DNA of 63,440 nt, the filler included, from Asterionella formosa (Eukaryota): assembly GCA_002256025.1 (NCBI GenBank). It is 11 parts of 11 records of this genome, joined end to end, with 100 filler letters (N's around TTAATTAATTAA, not from the genome) between each part and the next. Parts side by side here need not be neighbours in the genome. Positions count along the whole stretch, not along the records: positions 11,574 to 17,259 come from NKIB01012963.1; 10 more parts are not named here. One strand, given 5' to 3'. Numbering within the stretch: position 1 is the stretch's first letter; each line of letters starts with the position of its first letter. The position numbers were made by a program, and so were the translations under genes. Shown piece after piece: positions 10,292 through 59,959 of the stretch. Below the pieces are notes generated by a model. It was given only the letters and a program-made list of their open reading frames with translations, made no database searches and had not been told where the DNA came from.

Positions 10292-11889
10292 TTCGAGTGG
10301 AGACAGAGAAGAACGCCGTTAAGGATGAATGCAACCATAACTGAAATAGCAAATGGTCTCCTCATGGAAGTTTTTCATTGAGTCTACATTATGCATCAAT
10401 AAGAATTTATACCAGTACCTGGTACCTGGTACCAGTACTCTGCCTCATGGACCTCATACCTCATTTTTCTGTACAGTAGGTTCCTACATTTTATGTATGC
10501 AGGGTCAAATCTAATCCGAATTTTGCCAAGTAGCGGCATACCATGCAACTGCTGAGTATAACGGCACCTGATTGTACGGTACCTGGTACATGGTTGAAAA
10601 AGGGATCCCTGATTTCCAATTAGGTCATGGGTATTTGAAAATAGGATATCACTTTGTTTTGTGTTGTGTTTGATGGGAAAACAGACTAGCATGCCCTTAG
10701 TCTGTTAACCTTCAGACATGTCGTAAAGAGCAACATTGAAGGGTGGACTCCATGAAAGTAAACAGAGTTTACTGATGGTAACTCTCATTTCAAAATTATC
10801 CTAAAACTGCTGAGAGTGATTGACGAGTTTTATTGGCAATGTCAAAGAGATCGAGGGACAAGCCAAGTATCCTCATTGATCTACCTGAAAGAATTATTCA
10901 TTCAAAGGACAGCATCTAGGTCTTTCAATCTACCTAGTCTAGGTAGATAGGTGTATATGTGACAGGGAAGAGGATGCAGTGAATCAAGCTGTGCCTCCAA
11001 AGGAACAATGAATTCATTTCAGACTTATGCTAACCATACATCAATCAAACTGCATTTTAAATAACACATTTACTGTAGTATGTAAATAATCCTTTTCAAA
11101 CACGAGTCTAGGAAATAGCACGCCATCAATCACAGTGATTTTCTCTTATAATAACATAATGGACATATGATGAGTTGTACTTTACCTTGGATCCAACCAA
11201 TTTTGACTATCATGGGCTGATATCTATAATATGAAGTTTTTACTTAATGGATGTCTTTATGCAATATTATATGTTTCCTTTGGATATTACAAGTTAGGAT
11301 TTATGTGTTATTTCTACACAGCATACATGCACCACTGTATGTAGTTGTTGCCATCCTGACCAGGACTGTATGAAACTGGACTTCTATTGATAGCCATAAC
11401 GAGCTTGTGGGTACCACCTAAAAACTGAGAGTCATACAAACTTTCAGTTTTGTACTGATAGTCATAACAAAACNNNNNNNNNNNNNNNNNNNNNNNNNNN
11501 NNNNNNNNNNNNNNNNNTTAATTAATTAANNNNNNNNNNNNNNNNNNNNNNNNNNNNNNNNNNNNNNNNNNNNAACTATTTTTTGAGAGAAAAAGCACAT
11601 CATCAAAGTTAGCATCAAATCATAAAGAAATCAAAAATAATGTAGATGACTGTAGAATGACTTGGCATGCAATGACTGTTAACAATAATGCAAATTTGAT
11701 CCTGAAGGACTTTTGAGTATTGAGACTACCAAAATGATTTAGTGAATGACTTTAAGCGAAAATGCTATTTAAAGGAAGAAATGGCACAGTATGCATTTTT
11801 CAAAGCTCCTGAGTGGGATTCGGATTTCTTTCTATATTCTATTAGGTGTATAATAAAATATATCTCCTTTTAATTCATCTTAATTATAT

Positions 11890-13932
11890 TTATCCAATTC
11901 GACGTCTTTTACTTTTGACAAGACAATTAGAACATATTGTTCCTTGCTCACCTGCAACTTGATAGCCTGATATATGTTTTTTGAAAGAGATGATACATTG
12001 ATGCAATTGAATGAAAATGTCACCACACACATCACACATACCGGTTGTCATCAACGTAGAATTGTATGCATCACCAACTTTCGCAAATTTGGCTACTTCA
12101 ATTGCTTAAGTAATGGTTCCAACTGTGTTTTGTGGAATATGATCCTTGTATGCAGGTTTAGCTGTCAATTCAAATTCAACTGTAGGTTTGATGACACTTT
12201 TTGCCTTCACTGCAGGCATCTCAGTAGCTGATGGTGAAAATGTCAAACCTTGATTAGAAATTTGCAATGCTAGATAGTCGAAATTTGTTGTCAGATGCTG
12301 CTCAATGTTTGTTATGGTAATCATTTTCGAATTCAAACTGGTTAAGGAATCATCTACAACTTGCAGAATGATTGTTGATGTTTTGTTTGTCTTCAAAATG
12401 AGGGCTACAATGCGCTTAACAACTAGCTTGATTCTTGAAAATCTTTTGCTTTCTGCTTGAGTGAAATTGAAACCCCATTGGTTTTTTAATTTCGCTTCTA
12501 GCTGAAAAATGCCGCCCTGGAAACACCCTTGATTATTATTGTGATCAAAGAAGTGTGTACCAAACCATTCATGCCAAATCGACAGGCAGCTCAAATGATT
12601 CTTATAGAGTTCATACCTTGGACATCCATTTTCATTTTTCTTCATGTGAATGGCACTAACAGATGTTGAAACACTTTGATCATTCAAAGATCTATTACTT
12701 TGTATTGATGATGAGGACTGTGCAGAGGATGAAAAATCGAAGGATGAAAAATGATTCAAAAGAGACTGTAAGTGTTGTGGTCGAACTAAGCCATCAACTC
12801 TATCGTTCAACTGTGAAAAGTTTGCTCTCATTTCAGAATGTAAATTTGTAAATCGATCTCTGACACCAGGTAAAATAGAGTCAATTCTAAGATCCACTGG
12901 ATCCTGAACCAAATTCAGATGATGAATCATATTCTTTAAAAATTCTTTGAACTCTTCACAGTTAAACACATCCAATGTGAACAAAAAATGACCCCGACCA
13001 TTCAATATCATTGTTGCTGCATCTTGCAGAATGATGACACAGAGGCAAGAGAGCAAATTAAGAAAAGCATAGGCGGTAGAATTGGTAGCTGCATCAATAG
13101 ATTCAATTTCTTTTTCAATAAATGGAAAGATAGTTTGTTGCAGGTTGATTGAAGGTTTGATGTGATCTCGTGGCAAAAAAACACTTCCTTTTTCATCTGG
13201 ATGGCCAGCCATAACACGCATGGCTTTCATTGGCAGTTTAGCTGAATAAACATCACGTTGAGTATCCACATTCCAATTTTCAAGGTCATTGATGTTATAG
13301 CCATCAAGTTCATCCAGTTCTGCTTTGACTGAACCAGCCGATCGACCAAAATGCACGAAATGTTTTGAAATAATGCCAAGGTGTCTGCAAGCATTCTTCA
13401 TGTTACTCGCATATGCCTGATAAGTTACTGAGATAGTGTTGTCGAAGCCCCGAGAATCTGTCAACAGCTTAATATTGAACCAGGCTTTGTTTGAAGCAAA
13501 ATCAAATGATTCTGCTTCTCCACTCTGCATAAATCTTGCCATTAAATAAAATCCAAGAGCACACTCACTGACATTACGATGTCGAATACAACGTCCATAA
13601 AGAGTCTTTAAACCATTTGTTTTCCCACTAGCAATGCGCATCACATGAATTAAAATATCCTCTAGACTATTTTTATCTTTGTGTAACAAGGAACAAAGAT
13701 CACTAAGTTCGCACTTAAAGAGTGACTCGCCTCTTAAGATCCCATTTGTTGTCATCAAAAGACAATATCGATCACGTAAAGATGCCACTGAATAAATGGA
13801 TGATAACGAATTTTTTTGAAAGAAAAAATCTTCAAGTCTTGGTATATCTTGAGCAGCAGTGTATGGCGTGAATTCACTTGTCAATTTTTCATCGAAATTG
13901 CTTTTCGCAATTTGTGTCTTTCTTATTTTTAC
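11890..13932 (-). mobile_element. Crypton (CryptonF-like) tyrosine-recombinase DNA transposon: YR/Ndc10-II domain plus GCR1_C domain; 5' part cut off by a Copia insertion
   Basis: 592-aa ORF 12106-13884 carries YR catalytic residues R (ILRGES), K (GKTN), HxxR (HFGR), W (NWN) and Y (DVYS). The GCR1_C-like segment is IWHEWFG...GGIFQLEAK...KRFSRIK. The frame continues past one TAA to 11890. Confidence 0.88.
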
Positions 13933-14351
13933 TGTATAAATAACTAATAATAAATATATGTATGATGGTTCATGTCAAGAATATAGCATCAATGGCTATA
14001 ATGAGTCACAAGGACTGTGGACTCGACTATAGTCCAATGAGTCAAATGATGCGTTCCCATGTCAAGAAGGTTGCTAACAAGATTGATGTCTTAGATCAAT
14101 CAGAAGACGGTTTACAGCAACGAAAAGGGAACACGAAGAACAGGTTCTCGAAGTGTGATGAATGAGATTGAAACTTGGATTTAGTTTAAGCTTATAATTA
14201 AGAAACAGTGAGAATTGACAGAGTAAGGTCAATAGCGAAAACTGGCACGAAGGCTAGCAGCAGAAAGAAGATAACAATACTAGTGGTATAGCAGGTAAGT
14301 TCTACGTAAGAGGAACCCGTCAGACAGGAAGGAGTACGAGACCTTTCAACA
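13933..14351 (+). repeat. 5' LTR of a Copia element (about 419 bp)
   Basis: Starts TGTATAA exactly where homology to the uninterrupted Crypton copy (53400-53424) breaks. Ends TTCAACA shortly before the gag ATG at 14393. Confidence 0.7.
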
Positions 14352-14392
14352 TGCCTTAAAGCGCACCTTTGAAGGCCACAGACTACTCAGGA

Positions 14393-17085
14393 ATGATGGG
14401 AAGTGACGAAGACACGTCAGTGAGGTTGCCGACATTCGATGGCCCAGATGCTAAATGGCACATGTGGAAAGCGAAGTTTCTCGCATAGGCGTGCTACAAG
14501 AACTTTCAAGGAATACTTAACGGTGATGAACTACCAAGAGGAGAGAAAGACCTAATGGGTGATACAATCATGTTGTCGGATGCTGATGAGAGACGCATCC
14601 GAAGGAGCAACACAGTTGCTTACGCAAGTCTGATAATGGCATGCCAGAGTGGGCCATTCGGATACGTAAATAATGCAAGAAGTGCCGAGTTTCCTAACGG
14701 CAATGATAAAGAAGCATGGGACAAGCTCATTTCTACGAATGAGTCAGGCAACATGGCAAACGTCATTGCCTTGTCCCACCAATGGATGAAGTGCACTCTA
14801 GGGGAAAACGAGAACCCCGACAGCTGGTATGTGGAGTTGGATCGTATCCGGGAACGATTGGGCAATACAAGCTCCGCTGTTTTGGATAGTGCCTATGTGG
14901 CACACATGATCAACAACCTACCAGAATGCTACAAGAGTTTGGTAGTTGGAAGGTTTGGCCTGGCGCGCAACACGCTAACGGTCGAAGAGATTAAGACAGA
15001 CATCCGGGACTACTGCGATCTATATGTCCGGGATGACGTCAAAATGACTAACAAGAACAAGAGTGAACAGGCCTTCTAAACGAAAGGGAAGTTCAAAGGT
15101 GACTGTCGTAAGTGCGGCAAGTATGGCCACAAGGCGGCTGAATGTCACTGCAAGGGCAATAGTGCCAACAAGAAGGAGCTCACTCCTGAGCAGAAAGAAA
15201 AGAGGAAAACGATCAAGTGTTTCAAGTGCCAACGCATGGGACACTACGCAAGTGAGTGCACCAGTAACATTGCATCTAAAAATAACAAAAGCGAAGAAAA
15301 CAACACGACTACATCTACCCAGCAAGGAAGCAATGTTCGTCGAAATTAACTACGATGAGGAAGTTAACCTCGCTCGTGACGTCAGAAATCGCTGGTTGTT
15401 AGACAGCGGTGCTACCGTTCACGTCTGCACGGACGTGCGCATGATGAAAGACAAGAAACAAGTGAGTGAAACGATCGTGGTAGGGAATGGAACGGAGATA
15501 GTATCAACTGTCTCTGGTACCATGACCCTGACGACCACAGACGAAGGAAAACGCTTGAAACTCACCGATGTGCTTTATACACCGGAGTTCAAGCAGAACA
15601 TCATCAGTGTATCTAGAATGATCGACAAGGGTAATCAAGTGATCTTCGAGGACAATAGGATGACGATACGAAACAAGAGCGTCTTTCTGACCTACAAAAG
15701 AGACAAAACTCGAAAATTCGGAGCAATGTGCGTATCATGTCGAAGGTAATTCGATCATCAAGCAAACGGTGATGGAAGTCGAGCAACTACAAGAGAACAC
15801 AACACAACAATCGATCGACGACTACAACGAAAACGATTGGACGAAAGTTGAAGAAAAGAAAACGAACAAAGGAAAGAACAAATGGAATAATCAAAATGGT
15901 GAGTTTGAAAATAATTATGTGATGGTCGATATTAATGAAGCGCATGCGATGCTTGGTCATGTGGGCGAGAAACGTTTGCACGATACGGCGAAATTATTTG
16001 GATGGAAGTTGAGCGGCATCATGACAGTGTGCACAGGCTGTGCGGCATCGAAAGCGAAAGCACGAGCCGTACCAAAAACAACGCAAGAAAAATCGACGGT
16101 GAAGAGAGACTGCTTTTTGGGCATCAGCGGACCCTACGCGAAATCCGCTGTAGGTCATCATTACTGGGTCATGGCAGTGGACGACTACACAAGAAAGCCC
16201 TGGAGCTATTTCATTGAAAAGAAGAGCGATATCGGAACAGTCATTTAAGTTTTACTATCAAGTTTAGCTGGAGCCGGTCACAAGACAAAGTATGTGCGTT
16301 GCGATGACGCAGGCGAGAAAACTAAACAATTGAGAAAGGTATGTGAAAATCGCGGTATAAAAATGGAATTTACTGCCCCGCACACTCCACAACACAACGG
16401 TGTAGTGGAACGCGGTTTTGTCATTGTGCGACAGAGGACACTAGCAATGATGCTAAGTGCAAAACTAACAGATGAGTACCAAGGGCTATTATGGGCAGAA
16501 GCGGTACATACAGCTACACGTTTCACAAATTGTACATTCAACTTAGTAACTAAAAGAAAGCCCGACGACATGTTCTACAGCGAAATGAATCCAAGAAGGC
16601 CCTACAAGTTATACAAGCAATTTGGGCGTGTAGGCTGGGTTACTGCAAGACACAGCATTAGGAAATTAGACGCACATTCTTTCAAGTGTGTCTTTTTGGG
16701 TTATTCGGAGGACCACTCCCAAGATACGTATTGTATGTATAATCATCATGAGACTAACACCGTAATCAATACACACGATGTTAAGTGGAGTGAGTGGCAT
16801 GGAACAAACGCACCTACGGACAGACTAGGAAAAATCTACAAGGACAATGCTAAATTTATAGTAGCAGTTCAACCAGAAGCTGAAGTCAATAATGATGGAT
16901 TAGATGATGATTTCTACAATGAAAATTTACCACCAGAAGTTTCCGACAACAAGGAAGATGATGACGACAAGGATAAATCAACTACAGACACTGGAAAAGT
17001 AAAATCTACCACAAGGAGTGAAGAAATTTCTGACCTAGAAAAGAGAAATGTTTTGAAGCAACAAGCAAAGACTACATCTAGCTAA
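14393..17085 (+). mobile_element. Ty1/Copia (CoDi-type) gag-pol with stops/frameshifts: gag, two CCHC knuckles, protease, integrase; RT absent
   Basis: LPTFDG...WKAKF, CRKCGKYGHKAAEC, CFKCQRMGHYASEC, WLLDSGATVH, HAMLGH...CTGC and RCDDAGE...TAPHTPQHNGVVER. An unrelated AT-rich sequence with 21-bp tandem repeats begins near 17085. Confidence 0.93.
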
Positions 17086-28823: not shown

Positions 28824-28923
28824 NNNNNNNNNNNNNNNNNNNNNNNNNNNNNNNNNNNNNNNNNNNNTTAATTAATTAANNNNNNNNNNNNNNNNNNNNN
28901 NNNNNNNNNNNNNNNNNNNNNNN

Positions 28924-31055
28924 ACTGGCAGCGGCTTGCGACGAGTTGTCTTGCCTTTTAGTGTTCCGATGTCAGGTCCAAAAATTTTCTCTGCAATTTT
29001 GATATCATCGGTAGTCACTGGATTATTGTTGATCGTATTCATACGAATTATTGCCTTGAAATCGTTAATTAATGGTGTACCCAAGGCATGAAATAGATCA
29101 CGAGCTCGCTTGGCTCTTTCAAATTGACGCTCAGAGTAAAATGTTTTGCTTTCTTCAAGTGTATTTAACATTTGAGCATTCTCCGCTCTTTCAAATCGAA
29201 CTGTTTTGTCTGGCAAATGAACAATGAATGCATCTTCTTTCTCAGAGTCGTAGGTAATTCTGTACCTATCTGCCATTTCGGCATAACTGAAGATGTTTGT
29301 GATTGCCTTTTCATTAAACCATACTTCTCCCCATTCTGGAAGATCAGCCTTCATATTTGTGACCATGGATCCACCATTTGTGGCCAGGTGCATGCTTCCG
29401 TTGGTTGACATTCGAATGTTATTAACCATTTTTGGATTGCAAAAGACTGTGACACTTGATTGATTATCCAATAGTATCCAGTCACGCATCTCAGATGCTT
29501 GGTAAAATTGTAGTTTCATATGAGCTCCCGTCCATCCAAATTGATTGGCATTTGCTTGTTGTGAAGCTTGTGATGACGGCGGGTTGTTGGAATTAACAGA
29601 GGTAACTGTACTCGTGTCGGATGTATTGGCCTGTGCCTGTGCATGGCTTTGGGCCTTGTTAATTGCCCATTCCTCTTTGGGTTTATTCCTGTCTTGGCAT
29701 GAAGGAGATTTGTGACCTGCTTTTCCACAGCAGTAACATTTTCCTTCTAACTGTGCAAACGATAAGTTCACGTCTTTGTCTTCCCTGCGTGCATCCTTTT
29801 GTTTCCTCTCTTTATCATTATCTCCTGGTTTCTTGTAGGCAGATTTATTTGTTACATCAAACCGATGGTTGCTGAGAACATTATTTGATTCGGTGATGGT
29901 CTTCGGGTATTGATCGTTGCCGAGTGATTGTTGAGTGTTCAGACCGGTCATAATTGAACTGTATTTGGCTTTATCGGCATTTTCGAGATATAAATATGCC
30001 ATAAATTGACTGAAAGCTTGTTCACGAAATTTATCTCGTTGCTTGATGTCGGTCTCGTTGTATCCATCCATGGCTTCAACGAACTTGGTGAGGATAATGG
30101 GTCCTCCCATGTGTGACTTGAGCACATCTCGTGCCACACGAAATCTCTTGGTGTAGTCTTGTAGACTTTCTCCTTCTTTTTGCTTTGTGAACAAAAGCGT
30201 TCTCATTGCATCTAAAATGATTGACATAAAATATCGATTCTCTTGAAAATTTAGTGCGTGTTCTTTAATTGCCATAAGCAATGTTATTGGGATATTTTCG
30301 ATCCTATTGTAATCGGATCTCGCTTCAATCTTGTTCTTCATGGCTTTGTTGCATCTTTCCCAGAGCAACGCATATGCCTTGGTATTATTATTTTCGTAGG
30401 CCTGTACCCTTTTACTGTAGGTGTCATAGTCAGCCTTAAACTCGATCTCAAATTGCGGATTCTCTGCGGCGCAATCTTCTTCTGTTGTTGAAATGCTCAC
30501 TTGCATTCTTGGCTTCCATACCGATGTGTTGATTGGTTCTAATGACTTGAGTGCGATTCCAATGTTGCTGCCATAATCAAACACTTTCTTGATGTAGTTG
30601 ATGAGATACTCAGTAGTAGTCTCATAGTCAGATGCCTGCTTCGATGATCCGAGGTAGTAGATATAGTCATTGACTGACTTCTTGATTGAGTGAGAAGCAA
30701 TATTGCTCCCTCCCTTGGCTTGAAACTTGCCCTTGGCTTGAGCCTTCTTGGTAAACTTTCCTTTGCCACTCATGATGCGCCCTGTGCGACTTCTTCAGAC
30801 TCTGGATGGTCTGGTACCCTCAGATCTTGTCTCTGGACTCTCAATTGTCCGCTTGTTGTTGATTGTGGTATCACGGCTCTTCCTGGCCTGCTAATTCTAT
30901 CAAAACTGTTGAAATTGCGTCCCGAAGCACTCTATGCTTTCTTGTATCCTGTAAGGACACGTCAGGGATCAAATAGGCTGTAGATATGAACAACAATGTC
31001 TCCGTGATCGATTGTAATCGTTCCTAAGAGTTTTAATAGAATTATGGGTTTTAAC
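28924..31055 (-). mobile_element. Ty1/Copia (CoDi-type) leader and open gag-pol 5' part (ATG 30773)
   Basis: Uninterrupted ORF of over 600 aa with CYCCGKAGHKSPSC, protease WILLDNQSSV and the pre-integrase FHALGTP...IFGPDIGTLKGKTTRRKP. Confidence 0.93.
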
Positions 31056-34985: not shown

Positions 34986-35269
34986 AAATGAGTAGAATCA
35001 ATAATTGTCAAAGAACTGCTGATTTGGCAGGGCGTGCGAGCGTGGCGACTGCACAATGACCTGCATCAATAAATTGATATCCCTCAAGGATGCCTTGGGT
35101 AGATTCATCAATATTTATTTTAATCCTCCTGTTGTCCTTCAAACCTGAACAAATTTTACGCTGAAGGTGATACCATTGCGGCAGCATTGATAAGTGGAAG
35201 TGACGAATTAGCTTTAATCCTATACATAGTCTCTACACATTTTTTTTTGGTTTACTCTTCTTATCAGGA

Positions 35270-36550
35270 TGTTGTCTCGACAATCGACATACACCCGAAC
35301 TACGAGCAACCACGGCCGTGCTACCCAACGCGCTCGTACAACAAGAACAACAACACCACTTGTACTCCCCGAGCACCCCCGATGTTCCACACGCCTTCAT
35401 GGTACTTACCCACGTATCCCAGACGTTTCTCGTACCAGCCGACCGCATCTTTTCCGTGGTTCGGATCGCCAGCTGCCATCTTTACTCAAGACACTTGGAA
35501 CCCCTACTGCAACATCACGTGTACACTCAGCGGCTCCTACTAATCCTACTATGCGTCAAGTCATACCTTACCCTACGACGATCAGCATACAATCTGACCC
35601 ACTTCATGATCATATCACGACACGTGGTCAACGCCATAATTCCTACCACGACCGTATGTCTCTTGAAGAGCGATTCAATACTGCCCCCCACAGTCGAGTC
35701 TCTATTGCTCGCAACATACCTTTGGACGCCCGCTCTACTTATAGTGGCCAACAGTATGATACTCTTACAGATGGGAATACTGTTGATAATTGCGCGAGAG
35801 ATCCTAATCCTCACCAGATATGTCTCTTTCCTTGGTGTGGTGTCAAACATATCTGACCCTCGCTGTTATTGTATTTGTTTTGGTAGTAACCATAAAACTC
35901 CCGATTGTTGGCATCTCAATGGACTCTCAGACAACCGGAAAGAACTACTTGTCAAAGCACATTCTGCTAAAATTGCTCGGCTCCCTCCGTTTGATGCAAC
36001 CCCTGGTCGACCTCCTCGCGAATCTCTTGGTCACTCTGGTCCACCAGGCACCCCTCCAGAAAATACTCAACTCCTTACAGTTGAGGCTATTTCCACCATG
36101 CCTGAGGACAAAGATGCAGAACCTACACACCTTCAGTCTGTCATAGATGATATACATATAACATCCAGAGAGAACATGTATAACATTGCACCATTTTCTC
36201 ATCAATACAGCTGGGATGTCCCCACTCCTCGATCCCCTGGGCCTTGTCATATTGACAATGATCAGGTTATCACATCTTCCCCAGTATATCATACAGGCAT
36301 GGTCGCTTTCGTTGCTCATATTCGTGATTCACACAAGATTCTTGATGACTTAGCTCTGATAAACTCTTATCCACTGAAGTTCTTAAACATATCTCTTCCT
36401 CTCTACCGCACTCCTCCACTCCTCATCCACCACTGGTCTGGAGTTTGCTGCGAAACTCCATGAAGGTGAACATTTGATGCATGAGGACACTGGAGCAAAT
36501 GGGAATGTCACTTGCATGAGCAATGAATTACACAATGTTGTGAGCTCCAT
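35270..36550 (+). mobile_element. Decayed Copia-like gag/protease remnant
   Basis: Knuckle-like CICFGSNHKTPDCW and protease-like HEDTGANGNVT near 36480, with many frame changes. Confidence 0.5.
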
Positions 36551-52016: not shown

Positions 52017-53888
52017 GATTATTATTGTGATCAAAGAAGTGTGTACCAAACCATTCATGCCAAATCGACAGGCAGCTCAAATGATTCTTATAGAGTTCAT
52101 ACCTTGGACATCCATTTTCATTTTTCTTCATGTGAATGGCACTGACTGATGTTGAAACGCACACTTTGATCAATCAAAAATCTATTACTTTGTATTGACG
52201 ATGAGGACTGTGCAGAGGATGAGAAATCGAAGGATGACAAATGATTCAAAAGAGACTGTAAGTGTTGTGGTCAAACTAAGCCATCAACTCTGTCGTTCAA
52301 CTGTGAAAAGTTTGCTCTCATTTCAGAATGCAAATTTGTAAATCGATCTCTGACACCAGGTAAAATAGAGTTTATTCTAAGATCCACTGGATCCTGAACC
52401 AAATTCAGATGATGAGTCATATTCTTTGAAAATGCTTTGTTTAACACATCTAATGTGAACAAAAAATGACCCCGAACATTCAATATCATTGTTCTTGCAT
52501 CTTGCAGAATGACGACACGGACGCAAGAGAGCAAATTAAGAAAAGCATAGGCGGTAGAATTGGTAGCTAGCTGCATCAATAGATTCAATTTCTTTTTCAA
52601 TAAATGGAAAGATTGTTTGTTGCAGGGTCATTAAAGGTTTGATGTGATCTTGTGGAAAAAACACTTCCTTTTTCATCTGGATGGCCAGCCATAACACGCA
52701 TGGCTTTCATTGGCAGTTTAGCTGAATAAACATCACGTCGAGTATCCACGCTCCGATTTCCAAGGTCATTGATGATATAGCCATCAAGTTCATCCAATTC
52801 TGGTTTGACTGAACCAGCCGATCAACCAAAATGCACGAAATGTTTTGAAATAATAATTCCAAGGTGTCTGCAAGCATTCTTCATGTTACTCACATGTGCC
52901 TGATCAGTTACTGAAATAGTGTTGTCGAAGCCCCAAGAATCTGTCAACAGCTTAATGTTGAACCAGGCATTGTTTGAAGTAAAATCAAATGATTCTGCTT
53001 CTCCACTCTGCATAAATCTTGCCATTAAATAAATCCAAGAGCACCAATAGCACACTCATTGACATTACGATGTCGAATACAACGTCCATAAAGAGTCTTT
53101 AACCCATTTGTTTTCCTAGTAGCGATGCGCATCACATGAATTAAAATATCCTCTTGACTATTTTTATCCTTGTGTAACAAGGAACAAAGATCGCAAAGCT
53201 CGCACGTAAAGAGTGATTTGCCTCTTAAGATCCTATTTCTTGTCATCAAAAGACAATCTTGATCATGTAAAGATGCCACTGAATAAATGGATGACAACGA
53301 ATTTTTTGAAAGAAAAAACTTCAAGTCTTGGGATATCTTGAGCATCAGTGTATGGCGTGAGATCACTTGTCAATTTTTCATCGAAATTGCTTTTCGCAAT
53401 TTGTGTCTTTCTCATTTTTACTGTCTTCAACAATCTTTTGACACAGCCAGACATAAGTACTTCCTTGGGTATGTTGTTGCATCCTCCATCCCGTTGCTGT
53501 GCATGCAAATCTAGGATGGCTGATCAATATTGATTTAGTACACTATATCCAATTGGCTTGTCTGAAATCCAATCAGTGTTGGAAATTACAGATTCATAAT
53601 CATCCTTTGAAAATTGTTCTTCCACTGGTTTACCTTGACCTGGTTGTCCTCTGGGTTGCTGATGATGTCTTGATTGATACCATAGAAAGCCAAAGAACTT
53701 TTCTCCTGTCACTGTTGTAGATGCCTGGGATGCCATCCACCTCAGACGGAAAAGCATAACGATAAAAATCAAGGAATTCTGCCATTTTTCTTCTATAGGC
53801 AAGAAATGGTGTTTTCCGGACAACCAGCCTTATCGTCTGCTGCAACCTGTTTTGCTTGAGCTGCGAATTTTCCACTTGTGTATGACAT
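52017..53888 (-). mobile_element. Second, frameshifted copy of the CryptonF-like element including the N-terminus
   Basis: 52017-53424 is a close, colinear match to 12530-13935. It continues upstream to ATG 53888 (MSYTSGKFAAQAKQV...PENT/AYRRKMAEFLDF...KPIGYSVLNQY). Confidence 0.9.
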
Positions 53889-54316
53889 GCTTAAATCGGA
53901 ATAAATGATTTTTATAATTTGGGAGGAGGTTGCATAGATTATGTGGTAACAAATTCAATTCAAATGAAGAAGGGATAAGAACGAGAGTTTGGTTGTGGTT
54001 GTAACAAGATGATGATAACAGCAGCCTCCAGTCATGATAATGCATCACATAGTTTAAAATATGGCTCGCGCTGGCAGCATCACGCCTACCGGTGTCCCAG
54101 CAGTTTAAGTTTAAGAGATGTACCGGTACACAAATTAACCTTTTGTTTGAAATGTCAATTAAATTTTATAGTACATTAAAGCTATCTAATAATTGCACTT
54201 GCGCCCACCAAATAGATGGACACAATTCATACCGGTTTTATTCGTCCGTACGGTACAATGGGACCTGCCTTTTCGTCAGCCGCACCCCCGGGAATCCTAG
54301 TAGTAGGGACTACATG

Positions 54317-57586: not shown

Positions 57587-58288
57587 GGTTGATTGTTGCT
57601 TCTTTTTTGTTTTTACCAGTATAGTCATCAACGATATTTGCCATGCTGCCAGGTTGATGCTCTGACATACCGGTATACATANNNNNNNNNNNNNNNNNNN
57701 NNNNNNNNNNNNNNNNNNNNNNNNNTTAATTAATTAANNNNNNNNNNNNNNNNNNNNNNNNNNNNNNNNNNNNNNNNNNNNCTACCACCGGTATGTCATA
57801 GGAAAGAAGCAATGGTATTTTAAAACCGGTATACATACCGGTAATGCTGTGGATAACGATGTGTTAACTTTTGGCATAAACCCCAAGAGTTAATCCCGGA
57901 GCATCAGTTAGGCCGTTGAAAATTTCAAGGGCATTCTTTGATTTTTGAGGCTTTTCCAGGCCCACATCTACTGCCGGTCATCAAATTTGCCTCCCCGTTC
58001 GGACGTGGAAAATATATGGAGCAAAGCGCAAATTTGATAACAACAAAATATACAACCCATCCCGGAAGATTATAGGTTACTGCCGGTAATTGCAGAAAAT
58101 CAAGGGTGCGAAGTCGAGAGGTTGCTATCCTTGGTTTGATTGTCGACATCGAGTTTCCTATCGAAGGCTCTAGAGCTGATATTGAATATCCCTGTGTCCT
58201 CCCTTTGGTGCTTAGAGACGAGCGAAAACGAAGAAAACTCCCTTGCAAGCATCCATTTTCCAGCCATCAAAGTGACTAATACACCACC

Positions 58289-59959
58289 ATGTCAAATCCT
58301 GCGAGCGAAGATGGAGACGTTAACATTACTGTAGAGGAGCTTCTTAAGGACAAGGATGCTACAATAGGTATGTTGGAGCGACAAAAAGGGAAACAGGATG
58401 AAGCTATTTTGCAGCTGCAGCAAGAGCTAGGTGAAGCGGAAATCCGGCACAAGGACGAAGTGTATTGGCTGCGTCTCGAAGTCGACGGTCTTCGACGCGA
58501 GAAGGAAGGCATAGAGGATCGCGTTGCGGACCTCTACCGCGAGTTGAGAGAGATTGAGTCCGAAGCGGACATTAAGGAACAACCACAGTCTTTGGACGCT
58601 GATTATGTCATGAGTCTCCAGCAGCAGGTAGGAAAATATGCACGTGCGTATAGCGTCTTAGAATCGCAGGTTTCCATGGTCAAGCAGTCTTGCGATGAAG
58701 TGGTCAAAAGTCTGAAGGAGGAGATTGCCGATGTTATGGATGACAAGACCAGGATGGAGATGGATCTCTTGAACCAGCTTGCTGTCCTTGATAATGAAAA
58801 GAGAGAACTCGAAATGGACTTCGAGGAGCAGGTCAAGATGAAGGATGACAAGATTGCTGATTTGAAGAAAGGTATTGGAGTAGTCACTGGTGGAAAAGGA
58901 AAAGAGAAGGAGGAAGATTTTGTCAACCAAATCAGTGACTTGAAGGATGCCAAGAGGAAGGTTGAAGACGAGCTCCATGCTGAGCGCAATGAGTCTGATG
59001 ATGCCATAGCACGTTTAGAGGAGGCAAACGCTGATCTCGAAAACCAGATTGAATCAATGGCCAGTGACTTGGAGGTAATGCGGCAGGGTGCTGCAGCCGA
59101 AGCTGTCCAAGTTCTTGATGCCTTGACCCGTGACCGCCAAGAAACCCTGACAACATTGGAACGTGTAGCTGTAATTTGGGAGAAGGCTGACGATTCTATT
59201 CAAGGCCTTGAAGATATAATGGACGAACTTAGACCAAATGATGATGATGCGATCCAGGGGGATCGTGAAAGGTTGCTCTCGACATTGGAAACTGCATCAC
59301 TTGTCCATGGCCAGATCAAAGTATCACTATTATTGGTAGAATTAAAGCTTCGGAACCAACTCAGCTCGTTGAAGAACGACAAGCTACGCATGGGCATGGG
59401 AAGTATTGCTCCAGACCAGAACCTGACAGAAAGAATGAAGGAGATTCAACAAGAAGCTTTGACGGCTCTCGATCAAGTTGAGGACAGCTTGACTGACCAA
59501 ATAAAGCAGCTCGAGAACCTCACCCGGGAGGAAACGAGCCAGGTTAAGGACGACCTACAGGAAAAGACAGATGAGCTACGCGTTCTGCAAGGGCAACACA
59601 AGAAGCTTGAATCAGAGATTTCCAGGTTACGCAAGCAGGATGAAGAAAGGAAGAACAAGGACTCAGACGAAAAGCCTTCAGAAAATGGGAAGATGGAGAC
59701 CGCTGTCAGCAAAGCTGTCTTGGAACGCCTTCAGAATGAGGTGCTAACAGTTGTGGAGCGTATCAGGGATAAAAATGAAACAATTGGGCGGCTAACAACT
59801 TCGATTGAGGAACACAAGATGAGAGAGGGTGCTCTGAAGAAAGAGCTGAAACGTATGATGAAGCGATCCCGGGGGACAGATGAAGACCAAGGGGGGCTTT
59901 CAGGAGCATCAAACAGGCAATCACGACGTCACTCCAGTGCTGCTCGGCCCAACAACTGA
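58289..59959 (+). CDS. Long coiled-coil protein of unknown function
   Basis: Intact 556-aa ORF, E/K/Q/L-rich heptads, with coding-like base composition. Confidence 0.88.
   Translation: MSNPASEDGDVNITVEELLKDKDATIGMLERQKGKQDEAILQLQQELGEAEIRHKDEVYWLRLEVDGLRREKEGIEDRVADLYRELREIESEADIKEQPQSLDADYVMSLQQQVGKYARAYSVLESQVSMVKQSCDEVVKSLKEEIADVMDDKTRMEMDLLNQLAVLDNEKRELEMDFEEQVKMKDDKIADLKKGIGVVTGGKGKEKEEDFVNQISDLKDAKRKVEDELHAERNESDDAIARLEEANADLENQIESMASDLEVMRQGAAAEAVQVLDALTRDRQETLTTLERVAVIWEKADDSIQGLEDIMDELRPNDDDAIQGDRERLLSTLETASLVHGQIKVSLLLVELKLRNQLSSLKNDKLRMGMGSIAPDQNLTERMKEIQQEALTALDQVEDSLTDQIKQLENLTREETSQVKDDLQEKTDELRVLQGQHKKLESEISRLRKQDEERKNKDSDEKPSENGKMETAVSKAVLERLQNEVLTVVERIRDKNETIGRLTTSIEEHKMREGALKKELKRMMKRSRGTDEDQGGLSGASNRQSRRHSSAARPNN

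What the first reader, a model, noticed from the sequence alone, without database searches (positions are those of the whole stretch)
11890..13932. CryptonF-like tyrosine recombinase with intact catalytic set and a hidden C-terminal Cys/His domain
Seen: the ORF keeps R-K-HxxR-W-Y and a GCR1_C-like domain. Reading through the single TAA at 12108-12106 gives 71 more codons: AIEVAKFAKVGDAYNSTLMTTGMCDVCGDIFIQLHQCIISFKKHISGYQVAGEQGTICSNCLVKSKRRRIG. This contains CxxC, HxC, CxxC and a basic NLS-like end. Known: CryptonF elements encode YR plus GCR1_C and are described mainly from fungi and oomycetes, with CryptonS the usual diatom group. Inference: the TAA is a recent nonsense mutation (e.g. CAA>TAA), and this family carries an extra Zn-binding module that I do not recognise from described Cryptons.
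Basis: partly seen in the sequence, partly recalled or inferred. Interest (0 to 1): 0.72.

Follow-up and report, generated by a model that had tools for sequence, protein, structure and literature searches.

The report
Dead Crypton copy; "finger" half intron
This is a broken copy of a Cre-like jumping gene, probably from a diatom; its early stop is a one-off mutation, and about half of the supposed hidden zinc finger behind it appears to be an intron that is cut out of the RNA, so it is probably a vestige rather than a new working domain.

Summary
In detail: one TAA (12108-12106) interrupts a CryptonF-type tyrosine-recombinase frame. The stop is private: 19 of 19 other genomic loci read GAA/GAG, and uninterrupted 837-838 aa frames exist in metagenomes. 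The window copy is dead anyway, lacking its first 154 residues and three invariant residues. The ~4.8-kb multicopy element has ~6-bp ATAACT terminal direct repeats and head-to-tail junctions; the scan noted such junctions before elsewhere in this genome.

The tail is family-specific (0 of 65 more distant relatives), but the Zn-module reading weakens. One poly(A) RNA contig skips exactly 75 nt, GT..AG (window 12041-11967), removing the first CxxC and HxC; the same sample's DNA shows no such joint. In 11 of 23 copies this stretch is 73 or 76 nt, frameshifting the unspliced frame but not the spliced one. An older copy weakly resembles a SCAND3/PHD-like finger (Pfam E=0.15; 7/2000 shuffles), suggesting a decayed finger turned into an intron. 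Splicing rests on one contig, and another RNA contig is unspliced. New member of a known kind; modest interest.

The parts
11574..13935 (-). 5'-truncated copy of a ~4.8-kb CryptonF-type element; it runs off its contig at 11574
   Evidence: 98% identical over 2371 nt to metagenome copies L180/L181; element length 4807 nt from L180's left end plus L181's right end; N spacers mark contig ends
12946..13779 (-). Tyrosine-recombinase catalytic domain (NDC10_II), with R 13734, K 13623, H 13353, R 13344, W 13275, Y 13248
   Evidence: Pfam E=2e-24; residue mapping; model of P0001 matches Ndc10 (E=2e-8) and, more weakly, Cre (E about 0.01)
12352..12612 (-). GCR1_C DNA-binding domain (carries R645G at an invariant position in this copy)
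12042..12246 (-). Family-specific linker of about 68 residues, added behind the normal C-terminus
   Evidence: absent from the 18 other rows of alignment A2; mostly pLDDT <50
12106..12108 (-). Private nonsense codon, GAA>TAA
   Evidence: 18 GAA and 1 GAG in 19 of 19 other loci
11967..12041 (-). 75-nt GT..AG intron (donor GTATGT, acceptor CAG) that codes the first CxxC and HxC only when retained
   Evidence: poly(A) contig joint L182 2917>2993, absent from same-sample DNA contigs; mapped to the window and to 23 copies
11890..11966 (-). Last exon: 25 codons with one CxxC and a basic, NLS-like end, then the stop
   Evidence: same spliced frame in 21 of 23 copies; the NLS role is inferred from composition
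11574..11889 (-). Start of the element's ~1.85-kb 3' region, which has no open frame and no recognised family
13934..13946 (+). 13-nt match to the element's right end, in opposite orientation, exactly at the 5' break (possible internal inversion)
   Evidence: window sequence against right ends
52017..54022 (-). Second, frameshifted copy of the same family on another contig; it ends before the tail
   Evidence: 92-94% identity

Best explanation
The locus is a dead, 5'-truncated copy of a multicopy CryptonF-type DNA transposon of a probable diatom. An active copy makes a Cre-like recombinase with a GCR1_C domain. It recombines the element's two ends across a shared ~6-bp ATAACT core, excises a circle, and integrates at ATAACT-like AT-rich sites, including the ends of resident copies, which gives head-to-tail dimers. 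The end structure is shown; circle and enzyme activity are inferred from the Crypton model. This family added a ~120-residue tail behind GCR1_C (shown). The tail probably once ended in a PHD-like, SCAND3-type C4HC3 finger (inferred, about 60%). In the lineage that gave most present copies, deletions removed the HxxC ligand stretch and one Cys, and the finger's first half became a 73-76-nt spliceosomal intron (splicing shown in one contig; order of events inferred). The usual product therefore ends in one CxxC plus a basic, NLS-like end and has no complete finger. The TAA is a post-insertion GAA>TAA change in this one copy (shown).
For: Private stop; uninterrupted frames. Dead copy. Multicopy: 41 matches in the own genome. 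Ends and core; 10 of 26 left ends listed are head-to-tail junctions, and so is L182. Tail family-specific: 0 of 65 relatives below 90% identity have a CxxC after GCR1_C; region search finds only P0001; profile search of 1.84 billion representatives gives 3 own-family hits and 3 repeat-protein artefacts. Intron: joint with GT..AG ends, 103 letters on the short side, depth 17.4, in poly(A) run X18, and 0 contigs with it in DNA run X5 of the same sample (9641 laid). GT and AG are kept in 23 of 23 young and middle copies; lengths are 75 (12), 76 (5), 73 (6); the spliced frame is the same in 21 of 23. The tree places the frameshifting length below the 75-nt clade. Finger ancestry: old copy L030 has CxxC-x4-HxxC, its only Pfam hit is Znf_SCAND3 (E=0.15), and 7 of 2000 shuffles match its score against a profile of 10 such fingers from this genome; two old copies share a 102-nt C3-to-C7 spacing against 66-67 nt in younger ones.
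Against: Splicing rests on one contig of one run. A metatranscriptome contig (X16 record 5) spans the stretch unspliced, and X7 contigs read 9 nt into it. Other frameshifts in the ORF are shared by 3-5 copies, so a shared frameshift alone is not unique to the intron, though it is the most widely shared (8 of 17). Core and tail do not differ significantly in selection (Fisher p=0.67), and none of 12 shared replacements in the finger hits a Cys/His ligand. Finger ancestry is weak: L031 scores no better than 262 of 2000 shuffles, the HxxC cysteine is seen in one copy only, majority readings of A1 do not meet the full C4HC3 pattern and score at shuffle level, hhalign gives 32% in another register, and the fold attempt failed (pLDDT 36). 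Several counted loci may be alleles or duplicates of one insertion.
Confidence: 0.62

Rival explanations
1. One reading: the unspliced 837-838 aa protein is functional and its tail binds one Zn (for example first and last CxxC as a ribbon). Splicing is a minor or regulatory event, and the youngest subfamily was selected to make the intron a multiple of three.
For: The intact-frame copies (P0001, L180) are of the 75-nt type. An unspliced RNA contig exists. No shared replacement hits a ligand (0 of 12; about 16% expected by chance, my estimate).
Against: 11 of 23 copies, including a whole older clade, break the unspliced frame, and metagenome protein P0116 (cluster of 22) shows the shifted ending. 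No fold, no profile match, no relative carries it.
Confidence: 0.13
2. The intron is real but the tail never was a finger. The frame was extended into former 3' sequence, and the TG-rich donor region gives Cys/Val codons by chance.
For: Only one old copy has the full middle motif; majority readings score at shuffle level; no outside homolog. Two old copies show a possible weak donor GTCTGT, so the intron may be old.
Against: L030's match to SCAND3-type fingers; three CxxC pairs in the majority reading (shuffle rate 0.9-2.3%); both old copies keep an open frame across the stretch (93 and 117 nt); such fingers sit on other recombinase ORFs of this genome.
Confidence: 0.19
3. The RNA joint comes from a transcribed genomic copy with a 75-nt deletion, or from an assembly artefact. 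There is no intron and the tail is simply a decaying coding extension.
For: One contig only; internally deleted copies are common in DNA run X5; contigs drop rare variants.
Against: Exact GT..AG ends at the best donor-like hexamer of the ORF (one search lists four donor-like sites, this the only GTATGT), intron-like length, absence from same-sample DNA contigs, and the skip rescues the frame of 9 of the 11 shifted copies.
Confidence: 0.06

Closest known systems
CryptonF elements of fungi and oomycetes (Kojima and Jurka 2011, PMC3212892; parts 1-3 of 7 of the text, further passages, and passages of supplements 1 and 4 read)
   Same: [quoted passage not shown]
   Different: Host is a probable diatom, where that paper lists only CryptonS-1_PTri. 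This family has an extra ~120-residue tail with an intron. No C48 peptidase was recognised in the 3' region.
CryptonF-1_cRei of Chlamydomonas reinhardtii (PMC9977147; passages read)
   Same: An algal CryptonF that recombines a short terminal motif with a near-identical target, excises cleanly and causes inversions.
   Different: Core is CACCG/CAYCG there and ATAACT here. Activity was observed there and is only inferred here.
Yeast Ndc10/Cbf2 and Gcr1 (domesticated CryptonF)
   Same: Pfam NDC10_II and GCR1_C; best structural match is 4ACO, E=2e-8.
   Different: Those lost the catalytic site (PMC3212892); this family keeps it and is a dispersed repeat.
Znf_SCAND3 (PF23663), a PHD-like finger; 29 matches at E<=1 in this genome, many at the N-terminus of other recombinase ORFs
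   Same: Old copy L030 has the CxxC-x4-HxxCG core.
   Different: Below the curated cut-off (12.5 against 27 bits). The window's version lacks one Cys and the HxxC stretch and has no match.
Glomhopper CryptonA elements (PMC13465315; passages read)
   Same: Crypton recombinase genes with introns, some supported by RNA reads.
   Different: Different Crypton group, with no consistent intron positions. Here one intron position is shared across the family and overlies a finger-like frame.

Membership tests
CryptonF | Tyrosine recombinase with the R-H-R-Y tetrad | tested here: met
   fold match to Ndc10 and Cre
CryptonF | C-terminal GCR1_C domain | tested here: met
   P0001 25.9 bits against cut-off 23; window copy below cut-off at 17.7
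CryptonF | Short (4-6 bp) terminal direct repeats as the element boundaries | tested here: met
   ATAACT core at both ends across independent flanks; short inverted motifs also occur subterminally
CryptonF | Dispersed multicopy repeat without reverse transcriptase or DDE transposase | tested here: met
   41 matches; no other long ORF in L180-L182; no such Pfam hit in the 3' region
CryptonF | Recombinase groups with CryptonF in a phylogeny with Repbase references | not tested
   No reference set was held as sequence; only a by-eye motif comparison with supplement 4 of PMC3212892
CryptonF | Circular excision intermediate and active transposition | tested here: inconclusive
   Head-to-tail junctions fit circles or tandem insertion; free circles not shown
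CryptonS | No GCR1_C domain; mostly TATGG termini | tested here: not met
   GCR1_C present, ATAACT termini
Znf_SCAND3 / PHD-like C4HC3 finger (window subfamily) | Eight ligands C-C, C-C, H-C, C-C in one translated frame | tested here: not met
   Fourth Cys and HxxC Cys missing; first half lies in the skipped stretch; 1580 of 2000 shuffles score as well
Znf_SCAND3 / PHD-like C4HC3 finger (old subfamily) | Profile match over cut-off and full ligand set | tested here: inconclusive
   E=0.15, 12.5 of 27 bits; 7/2000 for L030 but 262/2000 for L031; no single copy has all eight
Spliceosomal (U2) intron | GT..AG ends, removed in RNA but present in DNA | tested here: met
   One poly(A) contig against same-sample DNA; single observation

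The most novel reading that the evidence does not exclude
A diatom CryptonF lineage captured a PHD-like finger and now controls it by splicing: retaining the 75-nt in-frame intron gives a Zn-binding isoform (chromatin reading or target choice), and splicing gives a finger-less isoform. That would be a splice switch on a eukaryotic tyrosine-recombinase transposase, caught in transition from exon to intron, with a defined enzyme (P0001) and site (ATAACT junction) to test.
Probability: 0.12. Interest if true: 0.62.

Novelty: new member of a known kind. Interest (0 to 1): 0.3.

Why it matters
As it most likely stands, the value is modest. It extends CryptonF to a broad group of probable diatom elements (69 proteins; named hits from Fragilaria crotonensis and Pseudo-nitzschia gene models), which my searches did not find described in print (Repbase could not be searched). 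It supplies a natural intact recombinase with defined ends for testing the circle model of Cryptons. It also gives a dated series of copies in which a coding, finger-like stretch seems to turn into an intron. And it is a warning that read-through 'hidden domains' in eukaryotic DNA can be introns of in-frame length.

Tried and rejected
CAA>TAA: rejected, the codon is GAA. Stop-codon reassignment or programmed read-through: rejected, since no other copy has the stop. A conserved extra domain across relatives: none in 65 proteins, in the region search or in the representative search (three hits were repeat-protein artefacts). ESM Atlas for the window tail and the L030 tail: recognition scores below threshold and no usable family. 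Folding the old finger failed (pLDDT 36). Profile-profile and majority-reading tests of finger ancestry were weak or negative. Pairwise dN/dS by region gave 0.4-0.8 for the core and 0.8-3.2 for linker and finger, but the comparisons are not independent and the old-copy finger value is affected by indels; the shared-variant test could not separate core from tail. A second ORF (C48 peptidase) in the 3' region: no open frame in the family majority reading or in L180-L182, no codon periodicity, and no credible Pfam hit in 12 read-through frames (best E=1e-4, below cut-off). My interim idea that L034/L027 'restored' the frame was dropped: under splicing their deletion is a real frameshift. A simple Copia insertion as the cause of the 5' break is not supported: the LTR starts ~37 nt away and the missing 5' part is not on this contig. 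RNA depth was not used as expression evidence (contigs only). No complex prediction was run.

Full report
Observation. The minus-strand frame 13932-11890 has one internal TAA at 12108-12106 and continues for the 71 residues quoted. Pfam finds NDC10_II (E=2e-24) and a weak GCR1_C (E=0.0046), and nothing better than E=0.043 for the extension. The six catalytic residues are present. The window is a chain of contigs joined by N spacers, and this copy runs off its contig at 11574.

The stop. A search of the own genome gave 41 matches, of which 20 were fetched. Leaving out the window's own contig, 19 of 19 have a sense codon there: 18 GAA and 1 GAG. Some of these loci may be alleles or duplicates. 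A natural 838-aa protein (P0001) and an uninterrupted 837-codon frame in metagenome contig L180 run through the tail. So the TAA is a private GAA>TAA change. The copy is dead regardless: it lacks residues 1-154, has lost I280-A282 including invariant G281, and carries G375E and R645G at invariant positions.

The element. It is about 4.8 kb. Both ends share an ATAACT core, with unrelated flanks beyond. Ten of 26 left ends listed directly follow a right end across a single core, as does L182; four of the ten have near-identical flanks and may be one event. This fits the Crypton model of recombination between short direct repeats with a circular intermediate (Goodwin 2003, not read, as cited in PMC3212892) and the behaviour of CryptonF-1_cRei (PMC9977147, passages). 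Free circles are not shown. I found the junctions before reading earlier scan notes, which report such junctions for Crypton families elsewhere in this genome. The model of P0001 matches Ndc10 (E=2e-8) and, more weakly, Cre, and the motifs run as in the published CryptonF alignment. The host is inferred to be a diatom from the named relatives. The 3' ~1.85 kb has no open frame and no recognised family.

The tail is family-specific. Searches gave 70 distinct proteins. Five are at least 90% identical family members; none of the other 65 has a CxxC behind GCR1_C (many are partial, but the full-length ones mostly end 47-89 residues after the GCR1_C marker, against 183 in P0001). A search on residues 775-838 found only P0001 among 9 candidates. 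A profile search of 1.84 billion representatives gave 6 hits: 3 own-family and 3 repeat artefacts.

Half of the finger is an intron. Four runs were laid on L182, out of 24 listed. In poly(A) run X18 one 417-nt contig (depth 17.4, 103 letters on the short side) skips 75 nt with GT..AG ends. DNA run X5 of the same sample has no contig with this joint among 9641 laid. The skip maps to window 12041-11967 and removes the first CxxC, the HxC and the following His. Of 30 loci examined, 23 young and middle copies have GT and AG at these places, with lengths 75 (12), 76 (5) and 73 (6). Three older copies have GC at the donor place, two lack the donor region, and two were not parsed. The 11 copies of 73 or 76 nt break the unspliced frame, yet 21 of 23 give the same spliced frame. 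A tree of 26 copies puts the frameshifting length in a well-supported older clade and in branches next to the 75-nt clade. So the family multiplied while the unspliced finger frame was broken, unless those copies were moved in trans. Against this: the evidence is one contig; an X16 contig spans the stretch unspliced and X7 contigs read 9 nt into it (DNA or retained intron); other frameshifts are shared by 3-5 copies, against 8 of 17 for the intron one.

Selection. Variants shared by three or more of 36 copies give omega 0.58 for the core (p=0.012 against neutrality) and 0.79 for the tail (p=0.32). The two do not differ significantly (p=0.67), and no shared replacement hits a Cys or His ligand. 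The test is weak and decides nothing alone. AlphaFold leaves 721-838 almost entirely under pLDDT 50, but had no alignment depth there.

Origin of the tail. Old copies, 70-80% identical, have a longer version: 102 nt from the third to the seventh cysteine position, against 66-67 nt, and in L030 a CxxC-x4-HxxC core. I had recalled the SCAND3-type finger pattern before testing. It was then L030's only Pfam hit (E=0.15, below cut-off), and 7 of 2000 shuffles reached its score against a profile of 10 such fingers from this genome. L031 (262 of 2000) and the window tail (1580 of 2000) did not match. Majority readings had three CxxC pairs (shuffle rate 0.9-2.3%) but not the full pattern, and scored at shuffle level; hhalign and folding did not help. 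I put finger ancestry at about 60%. The genome has 29 Znf_SCAND3 matches at E<=1 (2 over cut-off), many at the start of other, CryptonS-like recombinase ORFs (the CryptonS label is my reading of their motifs), so a source of such fingers is at hand. No direct donor was identified.

Mechanism, step by step. Shown: domain content, ends, copy number, private stop, family-specific tail, one spliced transcript, frame-breaking intron lengths. Inferred: recombinase activity, circle, binding of subterminal motifs by GCR1_C, NLS role of the basic end, finger ancestry, and the order deletion then intronisation.

Comparison and verdict. It works like, and meets the tested features of, CryptonF; the phylogenetic test with Repbase references was not run. 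Searches for CryptonF, for Crypton with diatoms or zinc finger, and for Crypton with PHD finger listed no description of a diatom CryptonF or of such a tail. Most hits were seen as listings only; Repbase and subscription journals were not searchable, and unseen supplements of diatom genome papers may hold such families. Introns in Crypton genes are known (PMC13465315, passages). Verdict: new member of a known kind, with a probably vestigial, partly intronic tail; interest 0.3. The splice-switch reading remains open at about 12%.

Noticed in passing
window 13934-13946 (+): The 5' break abuts a 13-nt exact match to the element's right end in the opposite orientation, suggesting that this copy is an internally inverted element. 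The Copia LTR starts only at about 13973.
   Followed up: partly
window 13973-17085 (+): Frameshifted Copia retrotransposon (gag, protease, integrase pieces); its LTR has at least 40 copies at about 95% identity in the genome.
   Followed up: partly
L153:2-1255 (-), L162:1-1686 (-), L170:1366-2619 (+): Other recombinase ORFs of this genome, CryptonS-like by their motifs, begin with a Znf_SCAND3/PHD-like finger; at least two distinct families.
   Followed up: partly
L062/L095 (C11638), L087, L088, L090-L093, L107, L110, L111, L182: Head-to-tail junctions with one ATAACT core. In several, the upstream partner matches the young family only over the last ~80-330 nt, as if copies insert at the ends of older copies.
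   Followed up: partly
element ends, e.g. L062:2150-2350: Short motifs recur in both orientations within ~150 nt of each end (TCAGACTT and its complement; ATAATAACC and its complement): candidate binding sites.
   Followed up: no
L181:2834-4680: The ~1.85-kb 3' region is kept at 75-78% between old and young copies without an open frame; it may be the relic of a convergent second gene. Middle-clade copies (L025, L026) seem to carry a different 3' region.
   Followed up: partly
window 11984 (-): The window copy has CTTTC where most copies have CTTAC, about 18 nt before the acceptor: a possible branch-point loss.
   Followed up: no
L180:2167: The uninterrupted metagenome frame L180 has Q in place of the second catalytic R (HxxR), so P0001 is the better intact candidate.
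   Followed up: no
window 52017-54022 (-): Second, frameshifted copy of the same family, also lacking its left end.
   Followed up: partly
window spacers, e.g. 11474-11573: The window is a chain of ~5.8-kb contigs joined by N-TTAATTAATTAA-N spacers, so neighbours across spacers need not be adjacent in the genome.
   Followed up: yes
window 28872-30794 (-), 58280-59959 (+), 35204-36463 (+): Long ORFs (640, 559, 419 aa) without a credible Pfam match.
   Followed up: no
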